A stretch of 64,000 nucleotides of DNA from Candidatus Tayloriibacteriota bacterium (GCA_016215455.1 JACRJP010000002.1:2809-66808), one strand, 5' to 3'; positions 13,069 through 54,952 are shown, numbered from the stretch's first letter. The notes: a model not told the origin generated them from the sequence alone. Program-made: numbers and translations.

Positions 13069-13088
13069 ACAACAAACTAATTGAAATA

Positions 13089-14897: not shown

Positions 14898-14902
14898 GGT
14901 GT

Positions 14903-15964: not shown

Positions 15965-15968
15965 ATGA

Positions 15969-16364: not shown

Positions 16365-16415
16365 AAAAGTTCTGAGTAATCTTATTATACTATAACTTCG
16401 ACCAAATTAATGACA

Positions 16416-18146: not shown

Positions 18147-18157
18147 ATGTAGTTTAA

Positions 18158-18508: not shown

Positions 18509-18509
18509 G

Positions 18510-19112: not shown

Positions 19113-19117
19113 AATGG

Positions 19118-19837: not shown

Positions 19838-19858
19838 TAGTAAAGTGTGTATATCTCG

Positions 19859-20980: not shown

Positions 20981-21021
20981 ACAGAATATAGTCTAGTATA
21001 TCATAACTATTTGAGACTTTC

Positions 21022-35426: not shown

Positions 35427-35456
35427 AAAAAATCACTCGTATGAGTGATTTTTTAT
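35427..35456. terminator. bidirectional rho-independent terminator
   Basis: A6 run, stem ATCACTC/GAGTGAT with loop GTAT, then T7 run. Confidence 0.6.
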
Positions 35457-41660: not shown

Positions 41661-43034
41661 CTAAATCAGTTCATATGTCACCCCCTTCTCAGGACACACG
41701 GTGGATATCCCTATCTCATCATGAAGACGCTGGGCAAGGAATAATGCGGACTTTGGCTCCCCCATTGCAATGAATACCTTCTTCAAACTCGAAGCTCCTG
41801 TTGCAACAAACTTCACAAGATTATCAGAATCCTTATGAGCTGAATATCCAAATATTTCTTCGATATGAGCACGCACCGGAACTTTCTCTCCATCAATACT
41901 TACTTTCTTTTCTCCGTTCTGAAGAAGTCTTCCGAGAGTTCCAAGTGGTTGGTATCCAACAAGAAGAATTGTATTTTTTGCTTCAGGAAGATATGCAGAT
42001 TCATGTTGGCGCACACGACCACCGGAAGACATTCCTGAACCAGCGATGATAATCTTCGCATCCATATTTCGATCAATCGACTGAGAATCCTTACTATTCG
42101 CTACAAATTTTAATCGAGGAAAGGCAAACACATCATCCCCTCCCTTAATACGCTTCTGTGTTTCTTCATTAAATACATGAGTATTTGATCGATACACTTC
42201 AGTTACTTTTGTTGCAAGTGGTGAGTCGATATATACAGGTAATTCAGGAACAGCCCCTGATTCAACAACGTCATTAAGCTCATACAACAATACTTGTGTT
42301 CGTTCTACTGAAAAAGCAGGGATCACAAGAGTACCTCCCCGCGAAAATGTATCCTGAATAACCTTAATTAATTTAGCTCGACGCTCATCCTTTGATTCAT
42401 GGTTACGATCACCATAGACACTTTCCATAATAAGATACTCAGCACCTTCGATTGACTCAGTATCACGAAGTAATGGACTTGGAGAATTTCCAAGATCTCC
42501 TGTAAACACAACCTTTGTAATTCCCTTCTCCACTGTAAAAGAACACTCAAACATTGATGAACCGAGAATATGTCCCGCGTCTTTTGCATACAGAGAAAAA
42601 CCTTCGTACAACATAACTGGTGTATGGTATTCAATGGTCTTCCACATAGTTAGAGCCTTAGCCACATCTTCCTTATCATATATAGTAAGTACTCCTTTCT
42701 GACGGGCATCTTTTTCAAGTAATATCACCGCATCTTCCATGATGTATTGAGCAATAGCAAATGTTTGTGAGGTTGAATAAATAACACCCTTAAATCCATC
42801 CTTCACCAATTTTCCAATACGACCAACATGATCGAGATGACCATGAGTAACAAGCAGGATGTCTATCCCTGCAGGATCATACGCAAATGGCTTATGATTT
42901 TCAGCATCAGCTTCCGGACTTCCTTGAGCTAAACCACAATCAACAAGAACTTTTTTACCACCATACTCAATCATGAAGTTTGCTCCAGTAACGCTCCCTA
43001 CCCCTCCGTAGCATGTGAGTTTAGGATTAGACAT
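41661..43034 (-). CDS. MBL-fold beta-CASP family hydrolase (RNase J/CPSF-like RNA-metabolising nuclease)
   Basis: Metallo-beta-lactamase motifs (LVTHGHLDHVG plus downstream His/Asp ligands). The ~450-aa length fits beta-CASP enzymes. Confidence 0.65.
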   Translation of the reverse strand: MSNPKLTCYGGVGSVTGANFMIEYGGKKVLVDCGLAQGSPEADAENHKPFAYDPAGIDILLVTHGHLDHVGRIGKLVKDGFKGVIYSTSQTFAIAQYIMEDAVILLEKDARQKGVLTIYDKEDVAKALTMWKTIEYHTPVMLYEGFSLYAKDAGHILGSSMFECSFTVEKGITKVVFTGDLGNSPSPLLRDTESIEGAEYLIMESVYGDRNHESKDERRAKLIKVIQDTFSRGGTLVIPAFSVERTQVLLYELNDVVESGAVPELPVYIDSPLATKVTEVYRSNTHVFNEETQKRIKGGDDVFAFPRLKFVANSKDSQSIDRNMDAKIIIAGSGMSSGGRVRQHESAYLPEAKNTILLVGYQPLGTLGRLLQNGEKKVSIDGEKVPVRAHIEEIFGYSAHKDSDNLVKFVATGASSLKKVFIAMGEPKSALFLAQRLHDEIGISTVCPEKGVTYELI

Positions 43035-43422
43035 TTTTTCGAGAAATTAACCATGCACCTGCTCCACCAATTATATCGAGAACAATATCAGTCATTGTAT
43101 CTGGCCAATATGATTGACCTGGTAGGACAGCAATATCCGCAATATATTCAAATACCTCCCACACAACACCTATAGCTATAACACCCAAAATGACCACCCA
43201 AAACTTTCGAGTAAATGTAAACCTTGGAAAAATACGTGAGCACAAGACAACACAGAACCCTATAGCAACACCTCCTAAAAAATGGACAAGACTATCGTAT
43301 CCATAAATAGATGCATATGCTCCCTGCATTCCATAAAAATGCGCACCACACACAACTATTGCTCCTAAAAGTGCCACGATATACATTCGCATGTGCTCCA
43401 GTATAGCAGGAAATAGAATCAT
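43027..43422 (-). CDS. small polytopic membrane protein (VanZ-like)
   Basis: 131 aa with 4 TM helices. Conserved E and D residues in WEVFEYI...DIVLDIIGG. Confidence 0.4.
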   Translation of the reverse strand: MILFPAILEHMRMYIVALLGAIVVCGAHFYGMQGAYASIYGYDSLVHFLGGVAIGFCVVLCSRIFPRFTFTRKFWVVILGVIAIGVVWEVFEYIADIAVLPGQSYWPDTMTDIVLDIIGGAGAWLISRKNV

Positions 43423-43660
43423 TCAAAAATATAAAAACACCTCCCTTAGAGGAGGCGTTCTTATGCGGTTACTTGTGTGTTACGACCTAGAGTTGTACTA
43501 GGTGGGTTTCTTCACGGCAAACGCCAAGGCGCGGCCGAATATGAATGCTTCTAGGTTCGTCAGAATCCCGTTAAATTGTTATAGAGGTAACACACGAGCA
43601 ACCTATTTATTATTATATTCTCCCCCGCAAGCAAAACAAGAGTGCATAACTAGTGCGAAA

Positions 43661-44269
43661 CTATTCAAGAATTCCGTCGAGATTGACATCATACAAAATC
43701 TTTTCTTGAACAAGAGTGTAGTTCACAAGCTCTTCAGCCGTGAACCAGTGTTTAATCTCATCTTCTGCTTCTTTTGGAGAGCCTGATGCATGGACGAGAT
43801 TACGTACTGAACGACCATCGGTATCAGTCATCTGGTACGAATCGAGCACAAAGTCACCACGAATTGTCCCGACATCTGATGTGAGAGGTTCAGTACCACC
43901 AGTGATTTTGCGAATGATTTTTACCGCATGCGCACCCTCCCAGACCATAGCAATGACAGGACCAGCGGTGATATATTTTACCAATTTCTTGAGTAGTACT
44001 TCAGTAATCTTAAGAGGATCACTTTCAGGAACAGGAAGACCTTTGTCGATATAACCTTTGATCGTCTTCTCCCCTGTTACACGACGCCACTCTGGATCAA
44101 GAGTATAGTGTTGCTCAACAAGTTCAGCTGTTGGTACCAACATCTTTATTGCCACAAGCTTGAGCCCTACTCTTTCATATCTACCGATAATTTCACCAAT
44201 GAGTGATCGCTGAATTCCATCTGGTTTGATAATGACAAGTGATCGTTCGTATTTGTGGTGTTGTTTCAT
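43661..44269 (-). CDS. ndk: nucleoside diphosphate kinase with a ~50-aa C-terminal extension
   Basis: RSLVIIKPDGIQRSLIGEIIGRYERVGLKLVAIK... and the catalytic-His context NLVHASGSPKEAEDEIKHWF. 202 aa, compared with about 140 typical. Confidence 0.8.
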   Translation of the reverse strand: MKQHHKYERSLVIIKPDGIQRSLIGEIIGRYERVGLKLVAIKMLVPTAELVEQHYTLDPEWRRVTGEKTIKGYIDKGLPVPESDPLKITEVLLKKLVKYITAGPVIAMVWEGAHAVKIIRKITGGTEPLTSDVGTIRGDFVLDSYQMTDTDGRSVRNLVHASGSPKEAEDEIKHWFTAEELVNYTLVQEKILYDVNLDGILE

Positions 44270-44310
44270 AAAGTCATTATACAGAATATGCTTCAGAATT
44301 TACATACCTC

Positions 44311-44991
44311 CTACTTCGGAGGTTCTTTCTCTAAAAGTCCCTGCTTATAAAGTTTTCGTTCTGCATCATTAAACTCTTTTACAGTTTTCTTGATCTGAGG
44401 GTTAATATAGAAATAATGACGTGCTTCAATTTCTGCTGAAGCTGCATCAATAGCTGTGATGTAGAACGATTCACCGTATCGTTCATCTCGCATGACATAT
44501 GATTGAGGTGAATCTTGCATGCTAAATAATTTCATTTCACCGTCTTCAACAATAACTGTCTTACCTGTTGGATTAAATCCTTCTTGTACTTGTCTCTTCA
44601 TCTTTGCTTGGTGATCCTCAAGATTAAGCCATTTAAAAAGCCACCTATGATCCTTCACCTCTTGTGCTGTTGGGTGCATATCATCAAATTCACGACTAAT
44701 ATATCGTGCAATATCCTCATCGGAATATCCGACATCATGAAGATCGGTACTCAATCGAAACAACTTCGCCTCAGAACCCTCATTTGCAAACGTATCAATC
44801 TCCACACGAGCTTTGGTTGGCGAATCAACTCCAGACTGACGATACGTGTCTGATGCTTGTAAAGTATCAGGTGACATATACCCCATTGCAATTGCAGCGG
44901 CTAGACTTACCGTCTTCTTTATTGAATGCATGAATCCTTTTTCAGGTTTTTCCTCTACAGACTCTTCATGAGACTGAATAAATTTTTCCAT
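44311..44991 (-). CDS. hypothetical signal-anchored protein in the ATPase operon
   Basis: 226 aa with an N-terminal TM helix (VSLAAAIAMGYM) and an acidic soluble domain. Confidence 0.45.
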   Translation of the reverse strand: MEKFIQSHEESVEEKPEKGFMHSIKKTVSLAAAIAMGYMSPDTLQASDTYRQSGVDSPTKARVEIDTFANEGSEAKLFRLSTDLHDVGYSDEDIARYISREFDDMHPTAQEVKDHRWLFKWLNLEDHQAKMKRQVQEGFNPTGKTVIVEDGEMKLFSMQDSPQSYVMRDERYGESFYITAIDAASAEIEARHYFYINPQIKKTVKEFNDAERKLYKQGLLEKEPPK

Positions 44992-44995
44992 AGGA

Positions 44996-47902
44996 TTAGA
45001 TTGGGAGATTTACAGGAGGTTGTTGTGTAGGTTTCGATACCGGAACATCAGAGGTTCGTGATACTGGTGGGGTATCCACAACGAAGCGTGGAGTCGTATT
45101 AAGTGGGGTGCGAGGTACTGTCGGAGTCGCAGATGGTAGTTTTGGACGTTCATACTTCTTCATGACCTCACTTTCAACAATACTTCGTTCACGACCATAC
45201 TTCAAATATGAGAGTTCCTTAAGATTTGGAACAATTCCCTTGTCACCCGCTACTGGAGCGATAGTTTCAATATCAAAGGGTTTAATTGGTTGACCATTTG
45301 AGAGGATCTTGAGATACGCATGACGGTTCTCAATATTCATGAGGTCTTTTGCAGTAAAGACTGGTGAGAACTGCTTTTCAAGATATTCAGCATCGTCAGC
45401 ACCTACACGAAATACTGCCATTGAACCGACGTTACCGAACACTGAATCACGAATACCCTCTTCAAGTTGGGCGATAAACTGATGCGCGATATTAAGTGAC
45501 AACTTATACTTTCGAGCTTCAGACAAAATGGTTGAAATAGAATTTGTTGTAACATTCTGGAATTCATCGATATACAAATAGAATGATGGCAAATTCTGAC
45601 CGAGTGAATCAACACGTGAAAGTGCTGCCATAAGAATTTTACCCACAAGAATGAGACCAATGAGATTAGCATTGATATCTCCAAGACGTCCCTTTGAAAG
45701 ATTAACCAAAAGAATCTTCTTTGAGTCCATGATCTCACGGAAATTAAACGTCGATTTCTCTTGAGCAACAATCGGACGCATAATATCATTCGACAAAAAC
45801 ACATCGAATTTACTTGTGATATACGGCACAATATTTGAAAGAGATGCTTCCCCTCCCGCCTTCTCAGCGACATCTCTCCAGAACTGAACAACAATTGGAT
45901 TCTTACATCGTGAAAGTTTAAGTTCACGATATTGTTTCTGAGCAAGAACGCGTGATACATCAAGGAGTGTATTTCCTGATTCAGGATCTTCCATGACAAG
46001 AAGTACTGCGTTACGGAAATACTGCTCAAACATTGGACCTCCTGCCGTCTTCATATCAAACAACTTATTAAATATCGACAACATCTCATTCACCACGAAT
46101 GTTTTTTGTTCAGGATATCGAGCATCAAACTCAAGCATGTTGAGTCCCATCGGGCGATCGGTGTATCCAGGATCAAAATAAATAACGTCTTCATATCGAT
46201 GTCGTGGAATCGCAGCTAGAATATCCTGGATGTCAGAGCCGTGAGGGTCAATCATACACACACCGTCTCCCCTCTCAATATCCTGAATGATCATGTTCTT
46301 GAGAAGTGTTGTCTTACCGGTACCTGTCTGACCAATAGCGTAGAAGTGGCGTAGACGATCTTCATCAGTAAGGAATATTTTTGTTGTGATATTTCGATGG
46401 TGATTAAGACCGAGCACAGTACCTTGCTGTGGCAAATCGATTGGTGCAGGAGCACCACCAGCCTTTGATATTTTGAGTTGAGGAGCTGTTCGTATAACCG
46501 TTGATGGAAAATGGACCATACTTGTAAGTTCTCGGAAACTTAGAGGAATCTTCTGATCCTCATCAAAAAGACGGAAAGTAAAATCATGAATACCGTGTGC
46601 TAGACCATTACCAATCAAACGATTAAATCGAATTCGATTTCCGGTTGGATTATCAAATTGATTAAATGCAGATTCAATCTCCCCCAACACATTACTTGCA
46701 GTCATTTCATCTTTAGCTGATGCGACAATACGAATATTCGCCAAGACAATTGGACTTGAAATTTTATTCTTAATATTCTCAACTGCAATCGCATCAACAG
46801 GAACAGTTTCTTCCTCCTTCTTTTCAGAAAAAGTTTTTACAATATCCTTACCAAATGCCCATATATGTTCAAACTTAGACTCAGGTATATCAATCGCTTC
46901 TTTAACCTTTGTTCCTTTATTAATCTTATCAATTGCCTTCTTGTACGCTCCTGTGTACTTATCACCACAAGGATTAAATATCATCTGAAGAGCTGCCCCC
47001 TGACCATCCTTAGCTATCTTTGAAAATGAATTGAGAATAACATTGAGTGGATCATGATCAAATTGTTCATATGTCTTGAGAGAAAATATCGGCTTACGAC
47101 CTGACATAGCATACGACATTTTGGTAACACCCTTTTCAGAAAAGATATTATAATCATCTTTTTTCTCAACTATCTTTGCATTATGGAAGATAGAGAGAAT
47201 CTGTTTTTCAAGAAGATTCCTTTTTGTATCATGGACAGCGACATAGAAAACAAACTCATCGCTATGATTCGCTACTGCAATTTCAAAAGCAAAAAAATTG
47301 GTACCATCCTGATTATCATCATTAACCGACAACATACCTGCATAGAATTGTTCCATTGATGAGACAAGTTCTTTGAGATTCTTTTGCTCAGCATCCTTGC
47401 CCGCTTCAGGAAGTGTCACTTCATAGAGAGTTACTTTCAATGCACGATACAAAGAGTCGCTTTCTTTAAGACCTGGAATAGGAAAACCTGCCTTAATATA
47501 CTGCACAAGAAAACGTTCGAAGTCATCCTCAATATGTGGATCCTTCAGATTTTTTACAATTGTAAGAGCGTTTTTAAAACCTTTTTCTCGAAAGATTCCA
47601 ACAAGTTCAGCCATCGTATCATCATGCGTCTCGGGAGTAAGTTCAAGAACAATAGCCTCGGTTTCGCGTGCTGAAGCAGCATACTCCGGATGCAACACTT
47701 CCCCTGGATGAACTTGACCGTACTCTTTAATAACCTCACGTGCAATATGAGACTGTTCAGAAGAAGAGATGTTGGCAAGTTTACCTTCAACTTTACGCGA
47801 TGCTAGTTCACGTTCTTTTTCAGCAACTTGAGCACGTAGATATGCAAGCTCCTGTTCAGGATTACGAAGACCCGCTTGAATATCAAGAGAAAACTTTTCC
47901 AT
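44996..47902 (-). CDS. large soluble P-loop ATPase of the FtsK/HerA/T4CP (TraG-VirD4)/VirB4-like class, with a ~480-aa N-terminal domain and a Pro-rich tail
   Basis: 968 aa. Walker A HFYAIGQTGTGKTT. About 260 aa downstream is a Walker B-like motif YLYIDEFQN, followed by AHQ. No TM helix. The C-terminal ~60 aa are Pro/Thr-rich. Confidence 0.6.
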   Translation of the reverse strand: MEKFSLDIQAGLRNPEQELAYLRAQVAEKERELASRKVEGKLANISSSEQSHIAREVIKEYGQVHPGEVLHPEYAASARETEAIVLELTPETHDDTMAELVGIFREKGFKNALTIVKNLKDPHIEDDFERFLVQYIKAGFPIPGLKESDSLYRALKVTLYEVTLPEAGKDAEQKNLKELVSSMEQFYAGMLSVNDDNQDGTNFFAFEIAVANHSDEFVFYVAVHDTKRNLLEKQILSIFHNAKIVEKKDDYNIFSEKGVTKMSYAMSGRKPIFSLKTYEQFDHDPLNVILNSFSKIAKDGQGAALQMIFNPCGDKYTGAYKKAIDKINKGTKVKEAIDIPESKFEHIWAFGKDIVKTFSEKKEEETVPVDAIAVENIKNKISSPIVLANIRIVASAKDEMTASNVLGEIESAFNQFDNPTGNRIRFNRLIGNGLAHGIHDFTFRLFDEDQKIPLSFRELTSMVHFPSTVIRTAPQLKISKAGGAPAPIDLPQQGTVLGLNHHRNITTKIFLTDEDRLRHFYAIGQTGTGKTTLLKNMIIQDIERGDGVCMIDPHGSDIQDILAAIPRHRYEDVIYFDPGYTDRPMGLNMLEFDARYPEQKTFVVNEMLSIFNKLFDMKTAGGPMFEQYFRNAVLLVMEDPESGNTLLDVSRVLAQKQYRELKLSRCKNPIVVQFWRDVAEKAGGEASLSNIVPYITSKFDVFLSNDIMRPIVAQEKSTFNFREIMDSKKILLVNLSKGRLGDINANLIGLILVGKILMAALSRVDSLGQNLPSFYLYIDEFQNVTTNSISTILSEARKYKLSLNIAHQFIAQLEEGIRDSVFGNVGSMAVFRVGADDAEYLEKQFSPVFTAKDLMNIENRHAYLKILSNGQPIKPFDIETIAPVAGDKGIVPNLKELSYLKYGRERSIVESEVMKKYERPKLPSATPTVPRTPLNTTPRFVVDTPPVSRTSDVPVSKPTQQPPVNLPI

Positions 47903-47983
47903 GTCCTCTATTATACCCTACCTATATCAAACAAAAATTGCCCTCAGAGCAATTTTTGTTGATAACAAATATAACTCGAGTGG

Positions 47984-48271
47984 TTATTTTGCAAGCTTCC
48001 CTCGCACACCCATGAGATTGATCTTATCATCAGCTTCGGTACTTGCTTTTTTAAGTTCCCGAAGTCCCTCTACTACATTCTCAAGCACAGCCTTATATCT
48101 TCGGTTAATTGCGTTATCGAGCTTAAGCTTTGCAACAGCAAGTTGTGTATACACTGCCCCTTGTTCTGCTTCAGATAAGTCTGCCGCAAACATTTCAGCA
48201 ATCATTGCTTTTGCTTCATCAATTTTCTTTGCCTCGAGAAGAGCTTCGAATTTTTCAGTATTAAATGTCAT
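47984..48271 (-). CDS. small alpha-helical protein (95 aa) in the ATPase operon
   Basis: Charged, helical and probably coiled-coil. Positioned between the 424-aa and 968-aa genes. Confidence 0.4.
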   Translation of the reverse strand: MTFNTEKFEALLEAKKIDEAKAMIAEMFAADLSEAEQGAVYTQLAVAKLKLDNAINRRYKAVLENVVEGLRELKKASTEADDKINLMGVRGKLAK

Positions 48272-48276
48272 GGTGA

Positions 48277-49551
48277 TTATTTAGTTATTTTAGAAAGCTT
48301 TCGACGAGCAGCGGCGATAAGAATCTTTTTTGTATTCGTCTCTGGAGAGTCAGGCATTGTCGCTTGTATTTCATCAAGAGTTGCCAGAACAAACCACTTC
48401 ACATTCCCTCCCTTAGTTGCACCAAGTTTTTCTCGGTTGATAAGCTCACTAAGACCAGCAACCATTTCATCAAGCGGCTTACTTCCTACGGTTGTAGTAT
48501 CGATCACGGCCTCGAGTTGATTAGTCACCGCAACCTCTACCATAGCACTGATCTTATCGGCAAAAGCCTTTTGATCGGCTCCGATATCTGACTTTGTATC
48601 CTCCTCAAACTGTTCAAGCTTTTCTAAAAAATTACTTGCTTCATCAACTGCAGGAAGATCGTACCCCTTAGCAAGCGCCTCCATCTTTTTTGTAACGGCA
48701 GCAAGAGCAACATTTTTGATCGCCTCCTCTGACATTAATGTACCAAGAAGTTTTTCATTAACTTTTTTCAATGAAGTATCCTTATCAGCTTTTAGAGAGT
48801 TAAGTTCATCAACACTTGCAAGTTTTTCTTGAATTTTTGCAATAGAAGCTTCGATATTTTTAATTTCATCTTTAATACCGAAAGAAGGTACGATCGGAGC
48901 TTTATCAAAAAAACCTACATCATACCCATACTGAGCCTTAAGAGCAGCTCGAGAATCTTTGTATTCTTTAAATGCTTGTTTTCCTGCACGAAAAGCTCCA
49001 ATGATATCACCTCCCCCGATCCAAAATGAAGAAAGCGGAGCTTTGATAATATTCATACTCGAAGCTTTTTCAAAAGTATCTTTTTTCTGCTCGAGTTGAC
49101 CTATAGTTGCCATGTGCTGCTCAATACCACCAAGATCTTTCACTTGTTGTTCTAGTCCAGCAATATCAGCGGATAAAGTTTCCGCTTCTTCAAAAGTTTT
49201 AATGATATCAAAAACATAATCAGGATTTTCTACCAACTGATCAGTTACATGCTCACGAATACCATTTATTGCTTTTTCAGGAATTTTTACACCCAACCGT
49301 TCACTAAACTCAGTGGTAATAAAACCATTCAACTTATCAATTGCTATAGTACCTTTATCAAACAATTCTTTTTTCTCAAGAATTTTCTCTGGATTTTTAT
49401 CAACATCTTTTACAAGATTTGCTTCAGCAGGATACTTACCAAGAAAAGCAACGAACTGAGGATCATTCAGGGCTTCAAATAATTTTTCTTCATTACTTGC
49501 TTTCTCTGCAGCAATAGCCTCTGGATCTCCGGTTGGTACTTTTGGTGTCAT
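48277..49551 (-). CDS. acidic coiled-coil protein (424 aa), first gene of the ATPase operon
   Basis: Long heptad-like stretches (LEQQVKDLGGIEQHMATIGQLEQKKD...). No enzymatic motif. Confidence 0.45.
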   Translation of the reverse strand: MTPKVPTGDPEAIAAEKASNEEKLFEALNDPQFVAFLGKYPAEANLVKDVDKNPEKILEKKELFDKGTIAIDKLNGFITTEFSERLGVKIPEKAINGIREHVTDQLVENPDYVFDIIKTFEEAETLSADIAGLEQQVKDLGGIEQHMATIGQLEQKKDTFEKASSMNIIKAPLSSFWIGGGDIIGAFRAGKQAFKEYKDSRAALKAQYGYDVGFFDKAPIVPSFGIKDEIKNIEASIAKIQEKLASVDELNSLKADKDTSLKKVNEKLLGTLMSEEAIKNVALAAVTKKMEALAKGYDLPAVDEASNFLEKLEQFEEDTKSDIGADQKAFADKISAMVEVAVTNQLEAVIDTTTVGSKPLDEMVAGLSELINREKLGATKGGNVKWFVLATLDEIQATMPDSPETNTKKILIAAARRKLSKITK

Positions 49552-49590: not shown

Positions 49591-50355
49591 CTATACAGTC
49601 AATATCTCAGCATCACCCTTTGTAATCAGGATAGTATGTTCAAAATGAGCACTTGGCTTACCATCTTTTGTCTTATAGGTATAACCATCCTTATCAAGAA
49701 ATACCTTATGAGTCCCTAAATTGAGCATAGGTTCAATAGCAAGCACCATACCAGGAACAAGCTTAGGACCTGTCTTTGGTTCACCATAGTTAGGTACATA
49801 TGGATCTTCGTGTACTTTATACCCCACACCATGACCCACAAGCTCTTCAATAAGGCCGTAACCATATGGCAATGCTGTTCGTTCAATAGCGGAACCAATA
49901 TCCCCTACAGTCTTTCCTGCTTTTGCTGCTTTGATACCAGCCATGAGTGCTGCTTTAGTAACACTGAGTAATCGTTCAACATCAGTACTAATTTTTCCAA
50001 CGGGAACGGTAACAGCAGCATCTGTAAAAAGACCTCCGTGAATAAGTCCGAGATCAATACTTACAATATCCCCCTCTTTCAAAATATGCTCTGTTCCTGG
50101 AAGACCGTGAACTACTTCGTCATTAATCGAAGTACAGATACTCGCAGGATATGGATAGGCTGCACCCTCTGGTTGATAGCCGAGAAATGATGAGGTATCG
50201 CCTCCTTCTTTGATGAGAGTAAACGCAAGATCATCAAGTTCTTTTGTTGAAACGCCCGGTGCTACTTTTGCAGTAATAGCCTTAAGAATTTCGGCATGAC
50301 GTTTACCACCCTCTCGTAGAATTCGTATATCGTCTTTTGTCTTAATAGTAATCAT
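49591..50355 (-). CDS. map: methionine aminopeptidase, type I
   Basis: 254 aa with the conserved metal-ligand D, D, H, E, E pattern and the MetAP-I consensus. Confidence 0.9.
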   Translation of the reverse strand: MITIKTKDDIRILREGGKRHAEILKAITAKVAPGVSTKELDDLAFTLIKEGGDTSSFLGYQPEGAAYPYPASICTSINDEVVHGLPGTEHILKEGDIVSIDLGLIHGGLFTDAAVTVPVGKISTDVERLLSVTKAALMAGIKAAKAGKTVGDIGSAIERTALPYGYGLIEELVGHGVGYKVHEDPYVPNYGEPKTGPKLVPGMVLAIEPMLNLGTHKVFLDKDGYTYKTKDGKPSAHFEHTILITKGDAEILTV

Positions 50356-50948
50356 GAGAATTTTGCGATATGTTCCACAATATCAGCATGCACTACATCA
50401 ATAGGTCGATCACCATTAATTTCTATAAAATTATAATGTGGATTATTACGATAATACTCAATAGTAGGAATCACATTAGAATCAAACCATGTCAGACGTT
50501 CTTCAATTTCCTCTTTATGATCATCACCACGACCTCGAGCAAGAAGTCGCTCGACTGAAGTGCTTTTTGGTACATTAATATACACAACAAAAGGTTTTGA
50601 AAGATTATAGAAACCAAATAGTGAATGAAGAACACCCGCTTCGTGCACTTTGCGTGGTGTACCATCAATAATGAGATGTTCTCCACCAGTATATGATTGA
50701 ATCATTCGATTTGCCCACATATAGATCATCAAAAATTCTGGTTCGAGATCCCCTCGATCATATATTTCTTTAGCAAAGCGTTGTGTCACACCATCATGGG
50801 CAATAAACTCACGAAGTTCACTTCCACTCTGTAAGTAAAGAACTCTCTTTTCGTTAGAATTTTTCTTGAGATACTCGGAAAGAAGCGTACCCTGCGTACC
50901 CTTCCCACACCCTGAACGACCCATAAGAATAATAGCTGTTTGATGCAT
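50352..50948 (-). CDS. adk: adenylate kinase
   Basis: P-loop GRSGCGKGTQG and LID/NMP-binding motifs. It overlaps the map start by 4 nt. Confidence 0.85.
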   Translation of the reverse strand: MHQTAIILMGRSGCGKGTQGTLLSEYLKKNSNEKRVLYLQSGSELREFIAHDGVTQRFAKEIYDRGDLEPEFLMIYMWANRMIQSYTGGEHLIIDGTPRKVHEAGVLHSLFGFYNLSKPFVVYINVPKSTSVERLLARGRGDDHKEEIEERLTWFDSNVIPTIEYYRNNPHYNFIEINGDRPIDVVHADIVEHIAKFS

Positions 50949-51182
50949 ACACCCTAGTATAGCCTAAATATATCAAAAAAGTAAGAAAATAGGCCTAAAA
51001 ATAGCCTCTTATATGAGTTTTCCACAGTATCCACATTGAGTGGATAAGTCTTTACTTGACGAGGGTAAGTATGGTATAATACGCCTAGACACGCAGAACT
51101 TCGAAAGTTCACCCGATTCGCACCTGTAGTGCGTCTTGACTGTGTCTTGTCTCAACCTCAACATAACGAAAGGACCGAAGCC

Positions 51183-52154
51183 ATGAAACGCTTCCTTCTC
51201 ATCGTGAGCCTCGCGCTCACACTCGGTATCGCTGGGGTTGCACAAACCCCTTCTAGCAACTCGGTCTCTCTCGCAACTCAGCTCCCTCTCGGGACCGCTG
51301 AGCGGCTTGAGGAGAATGCGCGTTCGCGCATTACTTACCTGACCGTATTCCTCTGGTTCACTGACTCGACCAAACTGATCAAGGAGTTCACTCCTGTGAG
51401 GTTTGATTCGACCAGTGAAGACCTCGAGACCTTTGTTCCTCGAGTCCTTGGAGAAAAGCTTGCGCTTCTCAACAGTCTCGCTATCACCAATACGGGGCGG
51501 CCTATACAGCTCGCCTACAAGTTTGTTGATAGTCGACTCATCATGCTGTTTTTTGGCACAGCTGAATTCACGTTGGAAAACCGCAACGGACAGTGCTCTG
51601 CACCGCTCGATGTGGAATACAACTGGCAGCTGCGCCCAGGATACGCTACTGGGTTTGGGATGCATGTCCCTGGGATTGTGAAGGCACATCTTGTTGCCCA
51701 AGACGGGACAAACACACTCTTTGACAAGGAGATCGATCGGAACACCAACGACAATGGGTTCGGAATCATGTCGACCATCGACTATCTCTTTCTCCCTCCT
51801 GAAGCCATCACCAATGGCTACAACGGAGAGTTGACGATATGGGTCAAGGACGGCAGTGACCCAAGTGGTCTCAGAATGGCGACCTACGACCTCCAAACAG
51901 GGGTTCGAACGTCTCCCATTCATCTGACCATGACCGCCTACTATCAAGGGGTCACGATCAAGATCACTGGGTCTCCAGGAAAGTCGGTAGCGCTTTGCCG
52001 CTCTACCACTCTTGGGGAGACACCTACAGTCTTTCAAACATTCATCTTGGACAGTGGTGGTGCCACCACTGTCCACATCAGCACAGAGGACACTGACTCT
52101 GTCACCGGATTCTTCAGCGCAAAGTATGTCGCAAGCGACAGTGCTAAGCGTTGA
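51183..52154 (+). CDS. hypothetical secreted protein in a GC-rich islet between adk and secY
   Basis: AAAGGA Shine-Dalgarno sequence before the ATG. Signal peptide MKRFLLIVSLALTLGIAGVAQ. Followed by a strong terminator. The antisense 355-aa ORF is treated as a shadow. Confidence 0.5.
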   Translation: MKRFLLIVSLALTLGIAGVAQTPSSNSVSLATQLPLGTAERLEENARSRITYLTVFLWFTDSTKLIKEFTPVRFDSTSEDLETFVPRVLGEKLALLNSLAITNTGRPIQLAYKFVDSRLIMLFFGTAEFTLENRNGQCSAPLDVEYNWQLRPGYATGFGMHVPGIVKAHLVAQDGTNTLFDKEIDRNTNDNGFGIMSTIDYLFLPPEAITNGYNGELTIWVKDGSDPSGLRMATYDLQTGVRTSPIHLTMTAYYQGVTIKITGSPGKSVALCRSTTLGETPTVFQTFILDSGGATTVHISTEDTDSVTGFFSAKYVASDSAKR

Positions 52155-52195
52155 ATCAGGGGGAAGCTATCGGAGCTGACCCTTTTTATTTTAAA

Positions 52196-52227
52196 CAAAA
52201 AAACAGACCTCTGGTCTGTTTTTTTAA
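52196..52227. terminator. bidirectional rho-independent terminator
   Basis: A8 run, stem ACAGACC/GGTCTGT with loop TCT, then T8 run. Confidence 0.65.
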
Positions 52228-52244
52228 CTCTATGTATTAATAGA

Positions 52245-54290
52245 TTAGAATTCTTCGATTGCCGGATCAACAGCTGTCACATCAATCGTCCTCCACACGT
52301 TACCACCCGCCCCAGCAGAATACTGGCATCGCATTTCATATCGAACCTGTCGAGCAGATTGTGTAATAGGTGTCTCTGCAGAATATACTGAGAAATCTTT
52401 ACTACTGTTATCCTGCCAAGCTGAATTTGATGTACTATTCCACACATTACATCCAAGGTTAAAACTACCAGACGAAGATGTCATCTCACCGAACAACTTA
52501 AATGGCTTATTCTTCTTCACTCTAAGAGTTCCTGTTGTTCCATTGAGTGAGTATTCAGACTTACCCTTAAGAACAAAGTTTGGAGTTGCAGAAGGACTTG
52601 TAACAGATATCGAACCACAAGCAAGTGATGAAGACTCTCCAGGTGTAGCTGATGTATCTCGTGCTTTAACCTGGAATGAGTGTGTTACTGGAGTCGAGTT
52701 AGTGTAGGTAAATATCTTTGATGGTGAAGACGTGTATGCACTCCATACCCCACTTTCATCTGTCCATGAATATTGATATGTACCATTACCTCCACTTGCT
52801 CCTGAAGCAGTTACCGTAACATCATACGGTGAACTCGATGTTGTACGTGTTGTTGGACTTACTGAACAAGAACCAACTGTTACAGATCTTAATCCTGTAC
52901 ATGGATTTTGCGGACCAGTGACGATAAACTCATTCGAAGAGAAAGAAGGATACTCAACATTTGAAATCACTGGAACAATCTTATATGTATATGGTGTACC
53001 AACAACAAGTGATGATGTATCGGTGTATGTCAGACCAGAAACACTCGCTAATGCTGTTGTTGGATATGTAGCGTCTGTTCCAAGCTTTCTATACACCTTA
53101 TATGTCGCAGTTCCTGAGTATGCATCCGTCCATGTTAATGTCACTGACGGCACAGCAGGACTCACACATTGATTTCCTCCAAGAGTTGAACCATTCAATT
53201 CAGGACCCTTAGATACTGTTACGTTAAATGTTGTTGTTTTAGTAATTGCAGGTGTACCGCCAGAAGTAGACGATGTACTTGAGCATGTAAAGCCTGTACT
53301 TGCATTTATCTCATTTCCCGTCAACGTCCAGTTATTAGTACCACACATAGCATTTGCTCGAGATCGTCGCCATTCTACAACAGTTCGTGATCCTGCGGAT
53401 GGATTGAGGTATGCATTTGAACCAACAACCTTACAATCCCCTTCATCGAAGTTAATACACTTTGTTGATTGAAAACCACCGGCTTCATAATCAGTTTTTG
53501 GATTAAACCCTGATTCGCTACTACAACCAAAGTAGAAACCGTCGTACTGATGATTTCCAGGATTACCATCAGAACCTGTCTGCCACACAATCGAACAAGG
53601 AGTAGTCGCTCCAGCGGTAACTGTAGTACCACTTGTAGCTGGCACAGTACCTGTAACAGTGACAGTGTACGTACCAAGTAGTGTATCTGACGAAGTGAGA
53701 AGCTTAAGATGCGAATTACTTGCTGGATTTGCCGGCAAGACTGGATTCGTACTGAAAGGTGCGACCAGAGGATCGATTTGTAATCCTGTTGTTGTATTCA
53801 AACGATTAGCACCTGATGTATCACCTACGAGCACAGCAGAGGTAACTGCTAGTGTAACGTTTTTTGATAGTGTTGAATCGGCGGATAGTAAGGTATTGAT
53901 CACTTCATCAATAGCATTCCCTGCTGTAACACTCTTATTTCCATCATTAGTTAAAGAGAAATCAAACACCGGTGTGGTAGTAACAACCTCAGACGTTGAA
54001 AAAGTAACAGACTGACAATAGAGACTGCCGACAGTACTGTAACTTCCTCCCATGTTGTATAAAGTAAAACCAACCATGACTGACCCAGAAGGACACGAAG
54101 AGTTTTGCTGGTATGTAGTGTTCGTTGTTCCTCCCCACGCACTTTCAACAACGGGCTTATTTTCATAACTCGTAACAGGACCTAGGATAAATGTCTGGCT
54201 CTGAGCTAAAACATGAGGTATCTGCGAACCACCCAACACACAAAGTGCCAAAGCTATAACAACCGACGAAAATATTTTTTTTAGTTTCAT
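52245..54290 (-). CDS. large secreted Ser/Thr-rich beta protein with an N-terminal ~60-aa Cys-pair domain
   Basis: Signal peptide. Domain ...VVESAWGGTTNTTYQQNSSCPSGSVMVGFTLYNMGGSYSTVGSLYC..., then about 550 aa that are Thr/Ser/Gly-rich. Confidence 0.5.
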   Translation of the reverse strand: MKLKKIFSSVVIALALCVLGGSQIPHVLAQSQTFILGPVTSYENKPVVESAWGGTTNTTYQQNSSCPSGSVMVGFTLYNMGGSYSTVGSLYCQSVTFSTSEVVTTTPVFDFSLTNDGNKSVTAGNAIDEVINTLLSADSTLSKNVTLAVTSAVLVGDTSGANRLNTTTGLQIDPLVAPFSTNPVLPANPASNSHLKLLTSSDTLLGTYTVTVTGTVPATSGTTVTAGATTPCSIVWQTGSDGNPGNHQYDGFYFGCSSESGFNPKTDYEAGGFQSTKCINFDEGDCKVVGSNAYLNPSAGSRTVVEWRRSRANAMCGTNNWTLTGNEINASTGFTCSSTSSTSGGTPAITKTTTFNVTVSKGPELNGSTLGGNQCVSPAVPSVTLTWTDAYSGTATYKVYRKLGTDATYPTTALASVSGLTYTDTSSLVVGTPYTYKIVPVISNVEYPSFSSNEFIVTGPQNPCTGLRSVTVGSCSVSPTTRTTSSSPYDVTVTASGASGGNGTYQYSWTDESGVWSAYTSSPSKIFTYTNSTPVTHSFQVKARDTSATPGESSSLACGSISVTSPSATPNFVLKGKSEYSLNGTTGTLRVKKNKPFKLFGEMTSSSGSFNLGCNVWNSTSNSAWQDNSSKDFSVYSAETPITQSARQVRYEMRCQYSAGAGGNVWRTIDVTAVDPAIEEF

Positions 54291-54313
54291 AATAGTAATA
54301 TGTTATAGACGTA

Positions 54314-54952
54314 TTAAGGCTCTTGTGTATTTCTAAGTCGAGTTCTGTATCCATCGACATATCCAGAATCAGTCGAATTATCAATATAATCACCTGTTGT
54401 AGTTGTCTGGGGACTATCACCAACAGTACCCGTTGTACTACCTGTACCTGTAGCAGGAATTACATCTTTTGCTGACAATACTTCACGACAATACAACATT
54501 CCAGCTGTACTATAGTTGTCACCCATATTGATAAGATTAAAACCAACTAATACTGAACCATCAGAACATCTAGCATTTTGAATCTGCTCATCTGTCGTTG
54601 CAGGGCCACCCCATGGGTTTTCAATAACAAATTTCTGTTGAGCGACAATTGGTCCAAAATTTAATGCAACAGTCTTACAATACAAACTACCAACAACACT
54701 ATAATTTGAACCGACGTTAAGGAGGTTAAAGCCGACCAAGACTGATCCGTCAGGACAAGAAGACGCAGCTATCTGGGTTGTATTACCAGCAGCTCCCCAT
54801 GGACTTTCAATGACATTTTTATCATATCGAACAAGAGGACCAAAGTTCGTAGAACTTGTCTGAGCAATTGCATATGACGCACCAGTATAACTGGCAATAA
54901 AAACCCCTACCAATATCACTGCTTTGAAAATTTTTGTTGTATCGTGGCTCAT
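54314..54952 (-). CDS. secreted protein with two tandem copies of the same Cys-pair domain
   Basis: Signal peptide. ...ESPWGAAGNTTQIAASSCPDGSVLVGFNLLNVGSNYSVVGSLYC... and ...ENPWGGPATTDEQIQNARCSDGSVLVGFNLINMGDNYSTAGMLYC... Confidence 0.5.
   Translation of the reverse strand: MSHDTTKIFKAVILVGVFIASYTGASYAIAQTSSTNFGPLVRYDKNVIESPWGAAGNTTQIAASSCPDGSVLVGFNLLNVGSNYSVVGSLYCKTVALNFGPIVAQQKFVIENPWGGPATTDEQIQNARCSDGSVLVGFNLINMGDNYSTAGMLYCREVLSAKDVIPATGTGSTTGTVGDSPQTTTTGDYIDNSTDSGYVDGYRTRLRNTQEP

What the first reader, a model, noticed from the sequence alone, without database searches (positions are those of the whole stretch)
43661..49551. Five-gene minus-strand operon built around a 968-aa soluble T4CP/VirB4-like ATPase with coiled-coil partners and an extended NDK
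Genes 48277..49551 (424-aa acidic coiled-coil protein), 47984..48271 (95-aa helical protein), 44996..47902 (968-aa ATPase), 44311..44991 (226-aa signal-anchored protein) and 43661..44269 (ndk with a ~50-aa C-terminal extension) lie on one strand with short gaps. The ATPase has Walker A HFYAIGQTGTGKTT. It also has a Walker B-like motif YLYIDEFQN about 260 residues downstream and an AHQ motif; that spacing and the DEF signature are typical of type IV coupling proteins and VirB4 rather than FtsK. Unlike those proteins it has no transmembrane anchor. It also carries a ~480-aa N-terminal domain with no motif I recognise, plus a Pro/Thr-rich tail. None of the partner proteins resembles a known T4SS or competence component. 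I infer a possible nucleic-acid or protein translocation/segregation module. It may work with the nearby type IV pilus competence machinery; no comEC-like channel gene is present in this window. A stem-loop at 47936-47962 may separate a sub-operon.
Basis: partly seen in the sequence, partly recalled or inferred. Interest (0 to 1): 0.7.

Follow-up and report, generated by a model that had tools for sequence, protein, structure and literature searches.

The report
Orphan soluble VirB4/VirD4-hybrid ATPase of Patescibacteria
The 968-aa protein belongs to a widespread, uncharacterised family of Patescibacteria (CPR) ATPases: a secretion "coupling protein" motor that has no membrane anchor and instead carries an N-terminal domain folded like that of the VirB4 secretion ATPase; it sits among housekeeping genes, and only two of its four proposed partners recur with it.

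Summary
All five ORFs, the Walker A/B and AHQ motifs, the missing TM anchor and the Pro/Thr tail are confirmed. The window is from a Paceibacteria-type CPR bacterium.

The ATPase belongs to the DUF8128 (PF26449) + TrwB_AAD_bind/TraG-D_C family, which has hundreds of relatives at 54-78% identity. It evolves as slowly as SecY or Map.

The five-gene operon is not a conserved unit:
- The widespread order is secY-adk-map-ATPase-ndk-DUF2238-betaCASP RNase.
- The 424-aa and 95-aa proteins form a fast-evolving pair. It abuts the ATPase in 16 of 82 related loci, on either side.
- The 226-aa protein has no homologue in any locus.
- The ndk is an ordinary long-type NDK, not C-terminally extended by 50 aa.

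No T4SS, relaxase or ComEC genes were found in the window, and the type IV pilus genes lie about 25 kb away. Orphan T4CP homologues in Patescibacteria were reported in 2025, with function unknown. This is a new variant of a known kind, of moderate interest.

The parts
44996..47902 (-). 968-aa soluble ATPase with a DUF8128 (VirB4-NTD-like) domain and a VirD4/T4CP-like ATPase domain
   Evidence: ORF. Pfam TrwB_AAD_bind 25.2 bits (cut-off 20.5) and TraG-D_C 23.7 bits (cut-off 22). The 99%-identical P0001 carries precomputed PF26449, PF10412 and PF12696; PF26449 is named DUF8128. The search found 1881 homologues; the best 120 listed are 62-99% identical.
47483..47902 (-). N-terminal helical extension (residues 1-140), specific to the ~910-970-aa subfamily
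   Evidence: Helices 15-138 in both AF2 models. Relatives of ~800-840 aa start at profile position ~137-144. The PHROG match starts at residue 169.
46493..47482 (-). DUF8128 core (residues ~141-470), predicted to have the VirB4 N-terminal-domain fold
45152..46420 (-). FtsK/HerA-superfamily ATPase domain (residues ~495-917). Walker A is at 46310-46333, Walker B YLYIDEFQN at 45554-45580, IAHQF at 45476-45490, and a helical insert lies between the Walker motifs (residues ~597-764).
44999..45148 (-). Pro/Thr-rich disordered C-terminal tail (residues 919-968)
   Evidence: 13 P and 8 T in 50 residues. pLDDT is below 50. Only the closest relative has a similar total length (970 aa); other relatives are ~909-949 aa.
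48277..49551 (-). 424-aa acidic helical protein with a basic amphipathic C-terminal tail. It evolves fast and is the first gene of a conserved pair.
   Evidence: jackhmmer finds 14 homologues in 80 loci, always directly followed by the 95-aa family and always abutting the ATPase. Identity to the orthologue in the 78%-identical genome is 27%. The last 25 aa carry net +2 to +7 in 16 of 17 family members, in otherwise acidic proteins. No Pfam, NCBIfam, PADLOC or PHROG family matched.
47984..48271 (-). 95-aa helical protein, the second gene of the conserved pair
   Evidence: 14 homologues in 80 loci, each immediately after a 424-aa-family gene. Also present in L085 (55% identity) and L086 (33% identity). 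No family matched.
47925..47964 (-). Terminator-like hairpin between the 95-aa gene and the ATPase, followed by TATAAT and AGAGGA just before the ATG
   Evidence: Fold of -25.7 kcal/mol, z -5.15. Sequence. TATAAT plus SD recur in L085 and L086, and L086 also has a hairpin with a U-run.
44311..44991 (-). 226-aa lineage-specific protein (probable signal peptide if started at M21), occupying a variable slot
   Evidence: No homologue in 80 loci. Absent in L085, where ndk follows the ATPase directly. In L086 the slot holds three small ORFs. No family matched.
43661..44269 (-). ndk, a long-type nucleoside diphosphate kinase. It is a syntenic neighbour, not shown to be part of the machine.
   Evidence: Pfam NDK 2e-37. 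Full-length alignment to P. aerophilum NDK 1xqi, E 1.5e-45. Found downstream of the ATPase in 45 of 80 loci.
49591..50948 (-). adk and map, the tail of the ribosomal-protein/secY cluster and upstream members of the same co-directional run
   Evidence: ORFs. map is upstream of the ATPase in 43 of 80 loci and adk in 36, with map abutting the ATPase directly in 17. ADK and Peptidase_M24 Pfam labels in L085 and L086.
43431..43464 (-). Strong terminator-like hairpin ending the adk-to-ndk run
   Evidence: 15-pair stem with 5 GC pairs, followed by a T-run.

Best explanation
The centre of the finding is a chromosomal, vertically inherited member of the patescibacterial DUF8128-T4CP family.

**Architecture.** It is a soluble P-loop motor of the FtsK/HerA superfamily. 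Its ATPase half is VirD4/TraD/TrwB-like by sequence. Its N-terminal half is predicted to have the fold of the VirB4 N-terminal domain, in place of the transmembrane anchor of classical coupling proteins.

**Proposed mechanism (inferred).**
- It assembles into a ring ATPase, as its superfamily relatives do.
- It is recruited to a membrane complex through the VirB4-like N-domain. In VirB4 that domain mediates VirB4-VirB4 and VirB3/VirB8 contacts. The target here would most plausibly be the patescibacterial T4SS inner-membrane complex, which also contains VirB4 and the VirB4-NTD-like TrsD. A still unidentified channel is the alternative.
- There it would energise or gate transfer of a macromolecular substrate.

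**The other genes.**
- The 424-aa and 95-aa proteins are its only credible accessory factors. The 424-aa protein is acidic with a conserved basic amphipathic C-terminus. That fits either a membrane tether or adaptor for the anchorless ATPase, or a fast-evolving substrate with a positively charged C-terminal signal, with the 95-aa protein as its chaperone.
- adk, map and ndk are housekeeping neighbours at the end of the ribosomal/secY cluster.
- The 226-aa gene is a lineage-specific insertion.

**Shown:** family membership, domain architecture, fold match, conservation, synteny and pair linkage.
**Inferred:** oligomeric state, docking site, substrate, and the role of the pair.
For: **Identity**
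- Pfam TrwB_AAD_bind and TraG-D_C score above their cut-offs. NCBIfam VirD4-like CD1115 aligns over residues 497-838.
- Relatives carry PF26449 (DUF8128) with PF10412, PF01935, PF12696 and PF02534.
- Shorter relatives match T4SS-DNA_transf and TrwB_AAD_bind over the whole nucleotide-binding domain.
- hhalign gives TrwB 93.6% probability against TrwK 12.9%.

**N-domain fold**
- The AF2 model has pLDDT 84.7.
- Foldseek finds only TrwK chains significant.

**Core-like conservation**
- Identity to two relatives is 78% and 67%. SecY gives 80% and 64%, Map 80% and 65%.
- The N-domain profile finds 2085 clusters at 50% identity, including Roizmanbacteria, Sungbacteria and Parcubacteria.

**Not mobile**
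- No relatives in IMG/VR.
- Fixed position after secY-adk-map in about half of the loci.
- GC content equals that of the flanks.

**Partner pair**
- Always in the order cc then h95, on the same strand, and abutting the ATPase. It lies upstream in 9 loci, downstream in 5, and upstream in both close relatives.
- The basic C-tail is conserved in 16 of 17 members.

**Literature**
- PMC12102498 reports 5,713 VirD4-like homologues in 2,918 of 3,035 Patescibacteria genomes. Only 148 lie near virB4, and the authors say exaptation cannot be ruled out.
- The same paper reports that TrsD, a VirB4-NTD-like protein, is the most abundant component found with the patescibacterial T4SS.
Against: - No T4SS gene (VirB3, VirB4, VirB6, VirB8 or pilins), relaxase or channel gene is in the 64-kb window among the roughly 45 ORFs scanned.
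- PMC12102498 reports that T4CP homologues occur in more genomes (2,918) than VirB4 (2,417). It also reports that the Southlakia homologue is not essential although the T4SS is. Both points argue against an obligatory T4SS role.
- The ATPase-domain model is low-confidence at residues 702-754 and 781-825. Structure therefore cannot discriminate VirB4-type from VirD4-type in the C-terminal half.
- All sequence matches to curated T4CP equivalogs are far below their cut-offs.
- The pair is adjacent in only about 20% of loci, so it may be dispensable or encoded elsewhere.
- No interaction, oligomer or substrate was tested.
Confidence: 0.5

Rival explanations
1. Housekeeping DNA translocase. The protein would act on the cell's own chromosome (segregation, dimer resolution or repair, in the manner of FtsK/SftA or HerA) rather than in secretion. 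Its place in the secY-adk-map cluster would reflect constitutive co-expression with core genes.
For: - It evolves as slowly as SecY and Map.
- It is near-universal in the clade.
- It has a fixed housekeeping context.
- It is soluble, like SftA and HerA.
- A shorter paralogue-type member lies next to an FtsQ-like POTRA_1 gene.
- No FtsK was seen in the window.
Against: - FtsK_SpoIIIE scores 14 bits against a cut-off of 24, and no FtsK gamma domain was hit.
- There is no HAS-barrel, and no NurA, Mre11 or Rad50 neighbours.
- Sequence profiles favour T4CP.
- The VirB4-type N-domain is known only from secretion ATPases.
- PMC12102498 reports the Southlakia T4CP homologue as non-essential.
- FtsK is mentioned in Saccharibacteria transcriptome papers.
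Confidence: 0.15
2. Nucleic-acid import motor for nucleotide scavenging. The ATPase would pull host- or environment-derived RNA or DNA into the cell. The imported polymer would then feed the neighbouring enzymes: the beta-CASP RNase, Adk and Ndk.
For: - The ATPase lies between adk and ndk, with a beta-CASP/RMMBL nuclease two genes further on, in many species.
- Weak NCBIfam similarity to CedD, a DNA-translocating ATPase.
- The bioRxiv preprint 10.64898/2026.06.21.733656 reports that a cultivated patescibacterium takes up host RNA and converts it via PNPase, Adk and Ndk. It calls the uptake mechanism unresolved.
Against: - adk-map is the ordinary end of the spc/secY operon in bacteria generally (established knowledge).
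- ndk is separated from the ATPase by a variable slot, and the RNase by a strong terminator.
- The synteny was seen only within closely related Paceibacteria-type genomes and is absent in about 40% of loci.
- No channel gene is present. The CedD hit covers only the P-loop region (E 7e-4).
- PMC12857230 reports that a comEC deletion does not affect viability in Southlakia.
Confidence: 0.12
3. Remnant or cargo of a mobile element or defence island: a conjugative T4CP, a phage-derived ATPase or an anti-phage system.
For: - PHROG phrog_5156 matches residues 169-916 at E 3e-78.
- Homologues occur in Bacillus phage G, Geobacillus TP-84, PBC5 and D6E.
- PADLOC mad8 at 5e-11 and weak HerA hits.
- The flanking slot genes are variable.
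Against: - There is no integrase, relaxase, repeat or tRNA boundary.
- GC content matches the flanks.
- The gene holds the same chromosomal position across dozens of species.
- Its conservation is like that of housekeeping genes.
- There are no relatives in IMG/VR.
- Phage homologues are only 21-24% identical.
Confidence: 0.03

Closest known systems
Orphan VirD4-like T4CP homologues of Patescibacteria (Quinonero-Coronel et al. 2025, PMC12102498); Pfam architecture DUF8128 (PF26449) + TrwB_AAD_bind/DUF87/TraG-D_C
   Same: Same family. The 99%- and 62-78%-identical relatives carry exactly this precomputed architecture and are named [quoted passage not shown], "TraM recognition domain-containing protein" or "DUF87 domain-containing protein" in MAG annotations. 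Like most of those homologues, this one is encoded away from virB4.
   Different: Nothing essential differs. This copy adds a ~140-aa helical N-extension, typical of the ~910-970-aa Paceibacteria-type subfamily, and a ~50-aa Pro/Thr tail. Only its closest relative has a similar total length (970 aa). I did not find the N-domain's VirB4-like fold, the secY-adk-map/ndk synteny or the linked gene pair described in the papers read.
Type IV coupling proteins VirD4/TrwB/TraD/TraG
   Same: Walker A and B motifs separated by about 250 mostly helical residues. DEF and AHQ motifs. Pfam TrwB_AAD_bind and TraG-D_C score above their cut-offs. hhalign gives 93.6% probability to TrwB.
   Different: No N-terminal transmembrane anchor. 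It carries a ~480-aa N-terminal region instead. It is not next to a relaxase or mating-pair-formation genes. It is chromosomal, with core-like conservation. Scores are far below the NCBIfam equivalog cut-offs (49 against 366 bits).
VirB4/TrwK/TraC/CagE T4SS ATPases
   Different: No sequence-level membership: TIGR00929 scores 15.7 against 643 bits, there is no CagE_TrbE_VirB or AAA_10 hit, and hhalign to TrwK gives 12.9%. It is not clustered with VirB3, VirB6 or VirB8. Per PMC12102498, Patescibacteria have a separate bona fide VirB4, encoded near dnaA/dnaN.
Anchorless Gram-positive coupling proteins recruited by a partner (for example TraJ of pIP501; from my own knowledge, not tested here)
   Same: A soluble T4CP-type ATPase that needs another protein to reach the membrane.
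   Different: Those proteins lack a VirB4-like N-domain and are plasmid-borne within a T4SS operon.
phrog_5156 phage proteins (Bacillus phage G gp156, Geobacillus phage TP-84 754-aa protein)
   Same: They share both the DUF8128 core and the ATPase domain (residues 169-916, E 3e-78 to the PHROG profile).
   Different: 21-24% identity. They lack the helical extension, lie in the early regions of Firmicutes siphovirus and jumbo-phage genomes, and also have no known function.

Membership tests
DUF8128-T4CP family of Patescibacteria | N-terminal DUF8128 (PF26449) followed by a TrwB_AAD_bind/DUF87/TraG-D_C ATPase region | tested here: met
   P0001 (99% identical, full length) and all 120 listed homologues carry PF26449 plus T4CP-type domains. 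The local Pfam copy lacks PF26449 but gives TrwB_AAD_bind and TraG-D_C above their cut-offs. The name DUF8128 appears.
DUF8128-T4CP family of Patescibacteria | Full-length homology to family members from Patescibacteria genomes | tested here: met
   62-78% identity over 93-100% of the length to MAG proteins of Taylorbacteria, Nomurabacteria, Paceibacterota and Parcubacteria.
Type IV coupling protein (VirD4/TrwB/TraD/TraG) | Nucleotide-binding domain matching the T4CP profiles (TrwB_AAD_bind, T4SS-DNA_transf, TraG-D_C) | tested here: met
   TrwB_AAD_bind 25.2 bits (cut-off 20.5) and TraG-D_C 23.7 bits (cut-off 22). Relatives P0372 and P0379 match T4SS-DNA_transf positions 44-379 of 468 and TrwB_AAD_bind 10-312 of 387. 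hhalign to TrwB gives 93.6%. NCBIfam equivalog cut-offs are not reached.
Type IV coupling protein (VirD4/TrwB/TraD/TraG) | N-terminal transmembrane anchor | tested here: not met
   No 19-residue window with KD >= 1.6 lies outside the ATPase core. The N-terminal 490 residues model as a soluble helical plus alpha/beta domain.
Type IV coupling protein (VirD4/TrwB/TraD/TraG) | Encoded with a relaxase and/or T4SS mating-pair-formation genes | tested here: not met
   None found in the window or in the flanks of 80 related loci, which instead hold secY, adk, map, ndk, DUF2238 and a beta-CASP gene.
Type IV coupling protein (VirD4/TrwB/TraD/TraG) | All-alpha domain inserted between Walker A and Walker B | tested here: inconclusive
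   Residues ~597-764 are predicted helical, but part of that stretch (702-754) has pLDDT below 50.
VirB4 (TrwK/TraC/CagE/PrgJ) | VirB4-type N-terminal domain | tested here: met
VirB4 (TrwK/TraC/CagE/PrgJ) | Sequence membership in the VirB4 profiles (TIGR00929, CagE_TrbE_VirB, AAA_10) | tested here: not met
   TIGR00929 scores 15.7 bits against a cut-off of 643. There are no Pfam VirB4 hits. hhalign to TrwK gives 12.9% probability over the P-loop only.
VirB4 (TrwK/TraC/CagE/PrgJ) | Clustered with VirB3, VirB6 and VirB8 homologues | tested here: not met
   No such genes are in the window or in related loci.
FtsK/SpoIIIE | FtsK_SpoIIIE motor domain, gamma (KOPS-binding) domain, N-terminal TM segments | tested here: not met
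   FtsK_SpoIIIE scores 14 bits against a cut-off of 24. There is no gamma-domain hit and no TM segment.
HerA | HAS-barrel N-domain, DUF87 core, NurA partner | tested here: not met
   DUF87 scores 22.4 bits, below the 23.2 cut-off, and covers the P-loop only. The N-domain matches VirB4, not HerA. There is no NurA neighbour.
Hexameric translocating ring ATPase (functional class) | Oligomeric ring with a central pore and pore loops; substrate-stimulated ATPase activity | not testable with these tools
   Only monomer models were available. This needs multimer prediction, cryo-EM or biochemistry.

The most novel reading that the evidence does not exclude
DUF8128-T4CP would be the missing cytoplasmic motor by which Patescibacteria move host-derived nucleic acid (RNA or DNA) or other macromolecules through their T4SS-like apparatus. 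It would dock through a VirB4-type N-domain instead of a membrane anchor. Its recurrent placement between adk and ndk and beside a beta-CASP RNase would then reflect a nucleotide-scavenging supply line. A corollary is that it is a surviving VirB4-to-VirD4 evolutionary intermediate: a VirB4 N-domain retained on a VirD4-type motor.
Probability: 0.1. Interest if true: 0.85.

Novelty: new variant of a known kind. Interest (0 to 1): 0.5.

Why it matters
Patescibacteria make up a large share of bacterial diversity and depend on hosts for nucleotides, lipids and amino acids. Their T4SS is essential in the one genetically tractable species, yet it has no recognisable in-cluster coupling protein (PMC10633639). 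How they acquire host macromolecules is also unresolved (bioRxiv 10.64898/2026.06.21.733656).

This family is a near-universal ATPase conserved at housekeeping level. It joins a VirB4-type N-domain to a VirD4-type motor. That makes it a concrete candidate for the missing motor, or for an unrecognised core function.

It also bears on how VirD4 arose from VirB4-like ancestors. The linked 424-aa/95-aa pair gives a first handle for interaction experiments. The immediate finding is more modest: the window holds an ordinary member of an already catalogued, uncharacterised family, and the proposed five-gene module does not hold together.

Tried and rejected
- **PDB by sequence.** A phmmer search and an hmmsearch with the family profile found only P-loop-level hits to TrwB and DotL. 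They were not informative beyond a lean towards T4CP.
- **Full-length AF2 model.** Mean pLDDT was 69.9, and the ATPase core was partly below 50. It could not separate a VirB4-type from a VirD4-type C-terminal domain.
- **Database search with the N-domain alone** returned only fragments of the same family.
- **Database search with the 424-aa protein** found only itself. The family was recovered instead by jackhmmer on ORFs of the related loci.
- **The 226-aa protein** has no homologue anywhere and no family hit.
- **Defence-system reading.** PADLOC mad8 (5e-11) and weak HerA hits were judged to be generic ATPase similarity. The fixed housekeeping locus argues against a defence island.
- **Viral origin.** There are no relatives in IMG/VR. 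Phage homologues are only 21-24% identical, and the TP-84 neighbourhood gave no functional clue.
- **Context of a shorter (804-aa) family member** (L082). It holds an FtsQ-like gene, a multi-TM GT-like protein and small membrane proteins, with no recognisable T4SS.
- **Reverse test of pair-ATPase linkage.** A metagenome scan with the 95-aa family failed because the alignment was too divergent to derive search patterns.
- **AFDB Foldseek** was unavailable.
- **Literature searches** for FtsK status in Parcubacteria and for PF26449 found nothing useful.
- **Link to the type IV pilus** was rejected. PilB, PilT, PilC, PilD and PilM lie at about 10-21 kb of the window.

Full report
**1. The observation**

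The five minus-strand ORFs exist exactly as listed: 424, 95, 968, 226 and 202 aa. In the 968-aa protein, HFYAIGQTGTGKTT is at residues 519-532, YLYIDEFQN at 775-783 and IAHQF at 805-809. Its only strongly hydrophobic 19-mer (residues 743-761) lies inside the ATPase core, so there is no membrane anchor. The last 50 residues are Pro/Thr-rich.

The stem-loop between the 95-aa gene and the ATPase is real. The 88-nt intergenic RNA folds at -25.7 kcal/mol, with z = -5.15 against shuffles.

Three details need correction.
- The co-directional run also includes adk and map directly upstream. It ends at a strong terminator-like hairpin at 43464-43431 after ndk.
- The ndk aligns over residues 7-182 with the 195-aa Pyrobaculum aerophilum NDK (1xqi, E 1.5e-45). 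Its extra length is mostly an internal insertion shared with that enzyme, plus a tail of about 20 aa. It is not a 50-aa C-terminal extension.
- The type IV pilus genes (PilD, PilC, PilT, PilB, PilM) lie at about 10-21 kb of the window, roughly 25 kb or more away.

**2. Where the window comes from**

The neighbours are ribosomal proteins L2, L5 and L6, SecY, Adk, Map, IF3, L35, L20, FtsH, RecG and LigA. All close homologues of the ATPase come from Patescibacteria MAGs: Taylorbacteria, Nomurabacteria, Zambryskibacteria, Paceibacterota and Parcubacteria. The window is a chromosomal segment of a Paceibacteria-type CPR bacterium. The GC content of the locus (0.39-0.40) matches its surroundings.

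**3. What the ATPase is**

Pfam gives TrwB_AAD_bind (25.2 bits, cut-off 20.5) and TraG-D_C (23.7 bits, cut-off 22). DUF87 and FtsK_SpoIIIE fall below their cut-offs. NCBIfam gives weak matches to TraD-type models, and to the VirD4-like CD1115 model across residues 497-838. All are far below the curated cut-offs.

The 5.8-billion-protein search returned 1881 homologues. The best 120 are full length and mostly 909-949 aa. Apart from one 99%-identical copy they are 62-78% identical. They are annotated with PF26449 plus PF10412, PF01935 and PF12696. PF26449 is DUF8128.

A genome scan confirmed relatives in at least 591 species-representative genomes. A profile of the N-domain alone finds 2085 clusters at 50% identity. 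These include forms of about 800-840 aa that lack the first ~140 residues. They come from Roizmanbacteria, Sungbacteria and Parcubacteria. Their C-terminal halves match T4SS-DNA_transf and TrwB_AAD_bind over essentially the whole nucleotide-binding domain.

hhalign of the family profile against R388 proteins gives 93.6% probability for TrwB (T4CP) and 12.9% for TrwK (VirB4). By sequence, then, the motor half is VirD4/T4CP-like.

**4. The N-terminal domain**

The architecture is as follows:
- a helical extension (residues 1-140);
- a VirB4-NTD-like DUF8128 core (~141-470);
- a T4CP-like ATPase (~495-917);
- a disordered Pro/Thr tail.

I did not find this VirB4-like assignment of DUF8128 in the papers I read.

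**5. Gene order in relatives**

I compared 80 related genomic loci.
- map lies upstream of the ATPase in 43 loci and adk in 36. map is the immediately adjacent gene in 17.
- ndk lies downstream in 45 and is the immediately adjacent gene in 23.
- A DUF2238 membrane protein and a beta-CASP/RMMBL RNase commonly follow ndk.

The widespread pattern is therefore secY-adk-map-ATPase-ndk-DUF2238-RNase. That places the ATPase at the tail of the ribosomal-protein/secY cluster.

jackhmmer shows that the 424-aa and 95-aa proteins belong to two families that always occur as a pair. The large gene comes first, then the small one, on the same strand as the ATPase and directly abutting it. The pair lies upstream in nine loci and downstream in five.

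The two closest relatives examined also have the pair upstream. They are L085 (ATPase 78% identical) and L086 (67%). Persistence of adjacency on either side of the ATPase is reasonable evidence of functional linkage. However, the pair is seen in only about 20% of loci.

The 226-aa protein has no homologue in any locus. In L085 ndk follows the ATPase directly. In L086 the slot holds three unrelated small ORFs.

**6. Evolutionary rates**

The table gives identity of the window proteins to L085 and L086.

| Protein | L085 | L086 |
|---|---|---|
| ATPase | 78% | 67% |
| SecY | 80% | 64% |
| Map | 80% | 65% |
| Ndk | 77% | 67% |
| Adk | 65% | 41% |
| beta-CASP RNase | 70% | 55% |
| 95-aa protein | 55% | 33% |
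| 424-aa protein | 27% | not detected by tblastn |

The ATPase is under housekeeping-level constraint. The 424-aa protein evolves very fast and varies in size from 412 to 1645 aa.

Members of that family are acidic overall, with net charge -3 to -41. Yet 16 of 17 end in a basic amphipathic tail, for example KKILIAAARRKLSKITK. The last 25 residues carry net +2 to +7, and only 4.4% of all 25-residue windows in these proteins reach +4. Such a tail could be a membrane-targeting helix or a T4SS-type C-terminal signal. Neither possibility was tested.

**7. Transcription signals**

The hairpin after the 95-aa gene is followed by TATAAT and AGAGGA immediately before the ATG. TATAAT plus a Shine-Dalgarno sequence recur at the same place in L085 and L086. 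L086 also has a large hairpin with a U-run. The generic promoter scan is not enriched over shuffles, so this remains a suggestion.

**8. Other contexts**

PHROGs contains a family of unknown function, phrog_5156, that matches residues 169-916 at E 3e-78. tblastn finds 21-24%-identical proteins in Bacillus phage G, Geobacillus phage TP-84, PBC5 and D6E. The TP-84 neighbourhood gives no functional clue.

No relatives occur in IMG/VR. PADLOC gives only generic ATPase-level hits: mad8 at 5e-11 and weak HerA.

**9. Literature**

- Quinonero-Coronel et al. 2025 (PMC12102498) found 5,713 VirD4-like homologues in 2,918 of 3,035 Patescibacteria genomes. Only 148 were near virB4, whereas VirB4 itself was present in 2,417 genomes. 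They noted that the Southlakia homologue is non-essential, unlike the T4SS genes. [quoted passage not shown]
- The same paper reports that TrsD, a protein remotely homologous to the VirB4 N-terminus, is the most abundant T4SS-associated component in the phylum.
- Wang et al. 2023 (PMC10633639) noted that the essential Southlakia T4SS lacks recognisable coupling and relaxase proteins.
- A 2026 preprint (10.64898/2026.06.21.733656) reports uptake of host RNA by a cultivated patescibacterium. It describes a PNPase/Adk/Ndk salvage route and an unresolved uptake mechanism.

**10. Interpretation**

*Shown:* the protein is an ordinary member of the patescibacterial DUF8128-T4CP family. It is soluble, strongly conserved, chromosomal and embedded among housekeeping genes. 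It combines a VirB4-type N-domain (by predicted fold) with a VirD4-type motor (by sequence).

*Inferred:* it forms a ring ATPase. Lacking an anchor, it reaches a membrane complex through its VirB4-like N-domain. The most plausible target is the patescibacterial T4SS inner-membrane complex, which already uses VirB4 and VirB4-NTD-like TrsD modules. There it would energise or gate transfer of a macromolecule. The 424-aa/95-aa pair would be a tether or adaptor, or a substrate with its chaperone.

I put about 0.5 on this overall: high for identity and architecture, modest for mechanism.

The rivals are:
- a housekeeping chromosome translocase (0.15);
- a nucleic-acid import motor feeding nucleotide salvage (0.12);
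- a mobile or defence element (0.03).

The broader distribution of T4CP homologues compared with VirB4, and the reported non-essentiality in Southlakia, keep the non-T4SS readings alive.

**11. Verdict**

Its interpretation is partly supported. The five-gene module does not hold together: there are two credible partners, two housekeeping neighbours upstream and one downstream, and one lineage-specific insertion.

The family is already catalogued (Pfam DUF8128, MAG annotations), and its orphan status is published. What this analysis adds:
- the VirB4-like fold of DUF8128;
- the hybrid architecture;
- the housekeeping synteny and evolutionary rate;
- the linked gene pair with a basic C-tail.

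I classify it as a new variant of a known kind, with interest 0.5.

Noticed in passing
window 51009-54952: Lineage-specific genes are inserted between secY (55404-56675) and adk. They are a 212-aa ORF and a 681-aa Ser/Thr-rich protein with an N-terminal signal-like segment, neither with a Pfam hit. Two fully overlapping ORFs on opposite strands follow (51129-52154 +, 341 aa; 51009-52076 -, 355 aa), in a stretch of higher GC (0.453). The plus-strand ORF has a signal peptide from M19 (MKRFLLIVSLALTLGIAGVAQ) and is probably the real gene. The 78%-identical relative L085 has different small genes (90 and 285 aa) in this slot.
   Followed up: partly
window 43027-43422 and 41661-43034: The 131-aa four-TM protein is a DUF2238 (PF09997) family member, as labelled in L085 and L086. 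Its gene overlaps the start of a beta-CASP/RMMBL metallo-beta-lactamase RNase by 8 nt. This pair is conserved downstream of ndk in many related genomes. Relatives of the RNase also carry a weak Anti-Pycsar_Apyc1 Pfam label.
   Followed up: partly
window 43661-44269: The ndk is the long insertion-bearing type, otherwise known from the archaeon Pyrobaculum aerophilum (PDB 1xqi). It also has a conserved C-terminal tail (...YDVNLDGILE) shared by Paceibacteria relatives.
   Followed up: partly
L040 1661-6598; L049 2010-5663; L086 3516-6575: Homologues of the 424-aa protein are expanded to 1645, 1217 and 1019 aa in some genomes while keeping the conserved C-terminal module. This size plasticity and fast divergence resemble effector or surface-protein evolution.
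   Followed up: partly
L081 (Geobacillus phage TP-84) 6782-9046; Bacillus phage G 90946-93063: Firmicutes phages encode distant homologues (phrog_5156) that share both the DUF8128 core and the ATPase domain. Their function is unknown. In TP-84 the gene overlaps a preceding small membrane-protein gene.
   Followed up: partly
L082 4604-14582: A shorter (804-aa) DUF8128-T4CP member sits in a co-directional cluster. The cluster holds an FtsQ-like POTRA_1 protein, a 597-aa multi-TM protein, a 162-aa acidic protein, four small multi-TM proteins and a 532-aa Pro-rich secreted protein. It may be a membrane machine partnered with this ATPase class.
   Followed up: partly
window ~8300-21000 and 35453-36373: A type IV pilus cluster is present: the PilD prepilin peptidase (10056-10847), PilC, PilT, PilB and PilM (19859-20980). 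Elsewhere there is a pilin-like protein with an N_methyl motif fused to a Laminin_G_3 domain. No ComEC was found among the ORFs scanned.
   Followed up: partly
window 47903-47925; L085 6985-7000; L086 6985-7000: A TATAAT box followed by a purine-rich Shine-Dalgarno sequence lies within about 15 nt of the ATPase start codon in three relatives. That implies either a very short leader or coincidental AT-rich sequence.
   Followed up: partly
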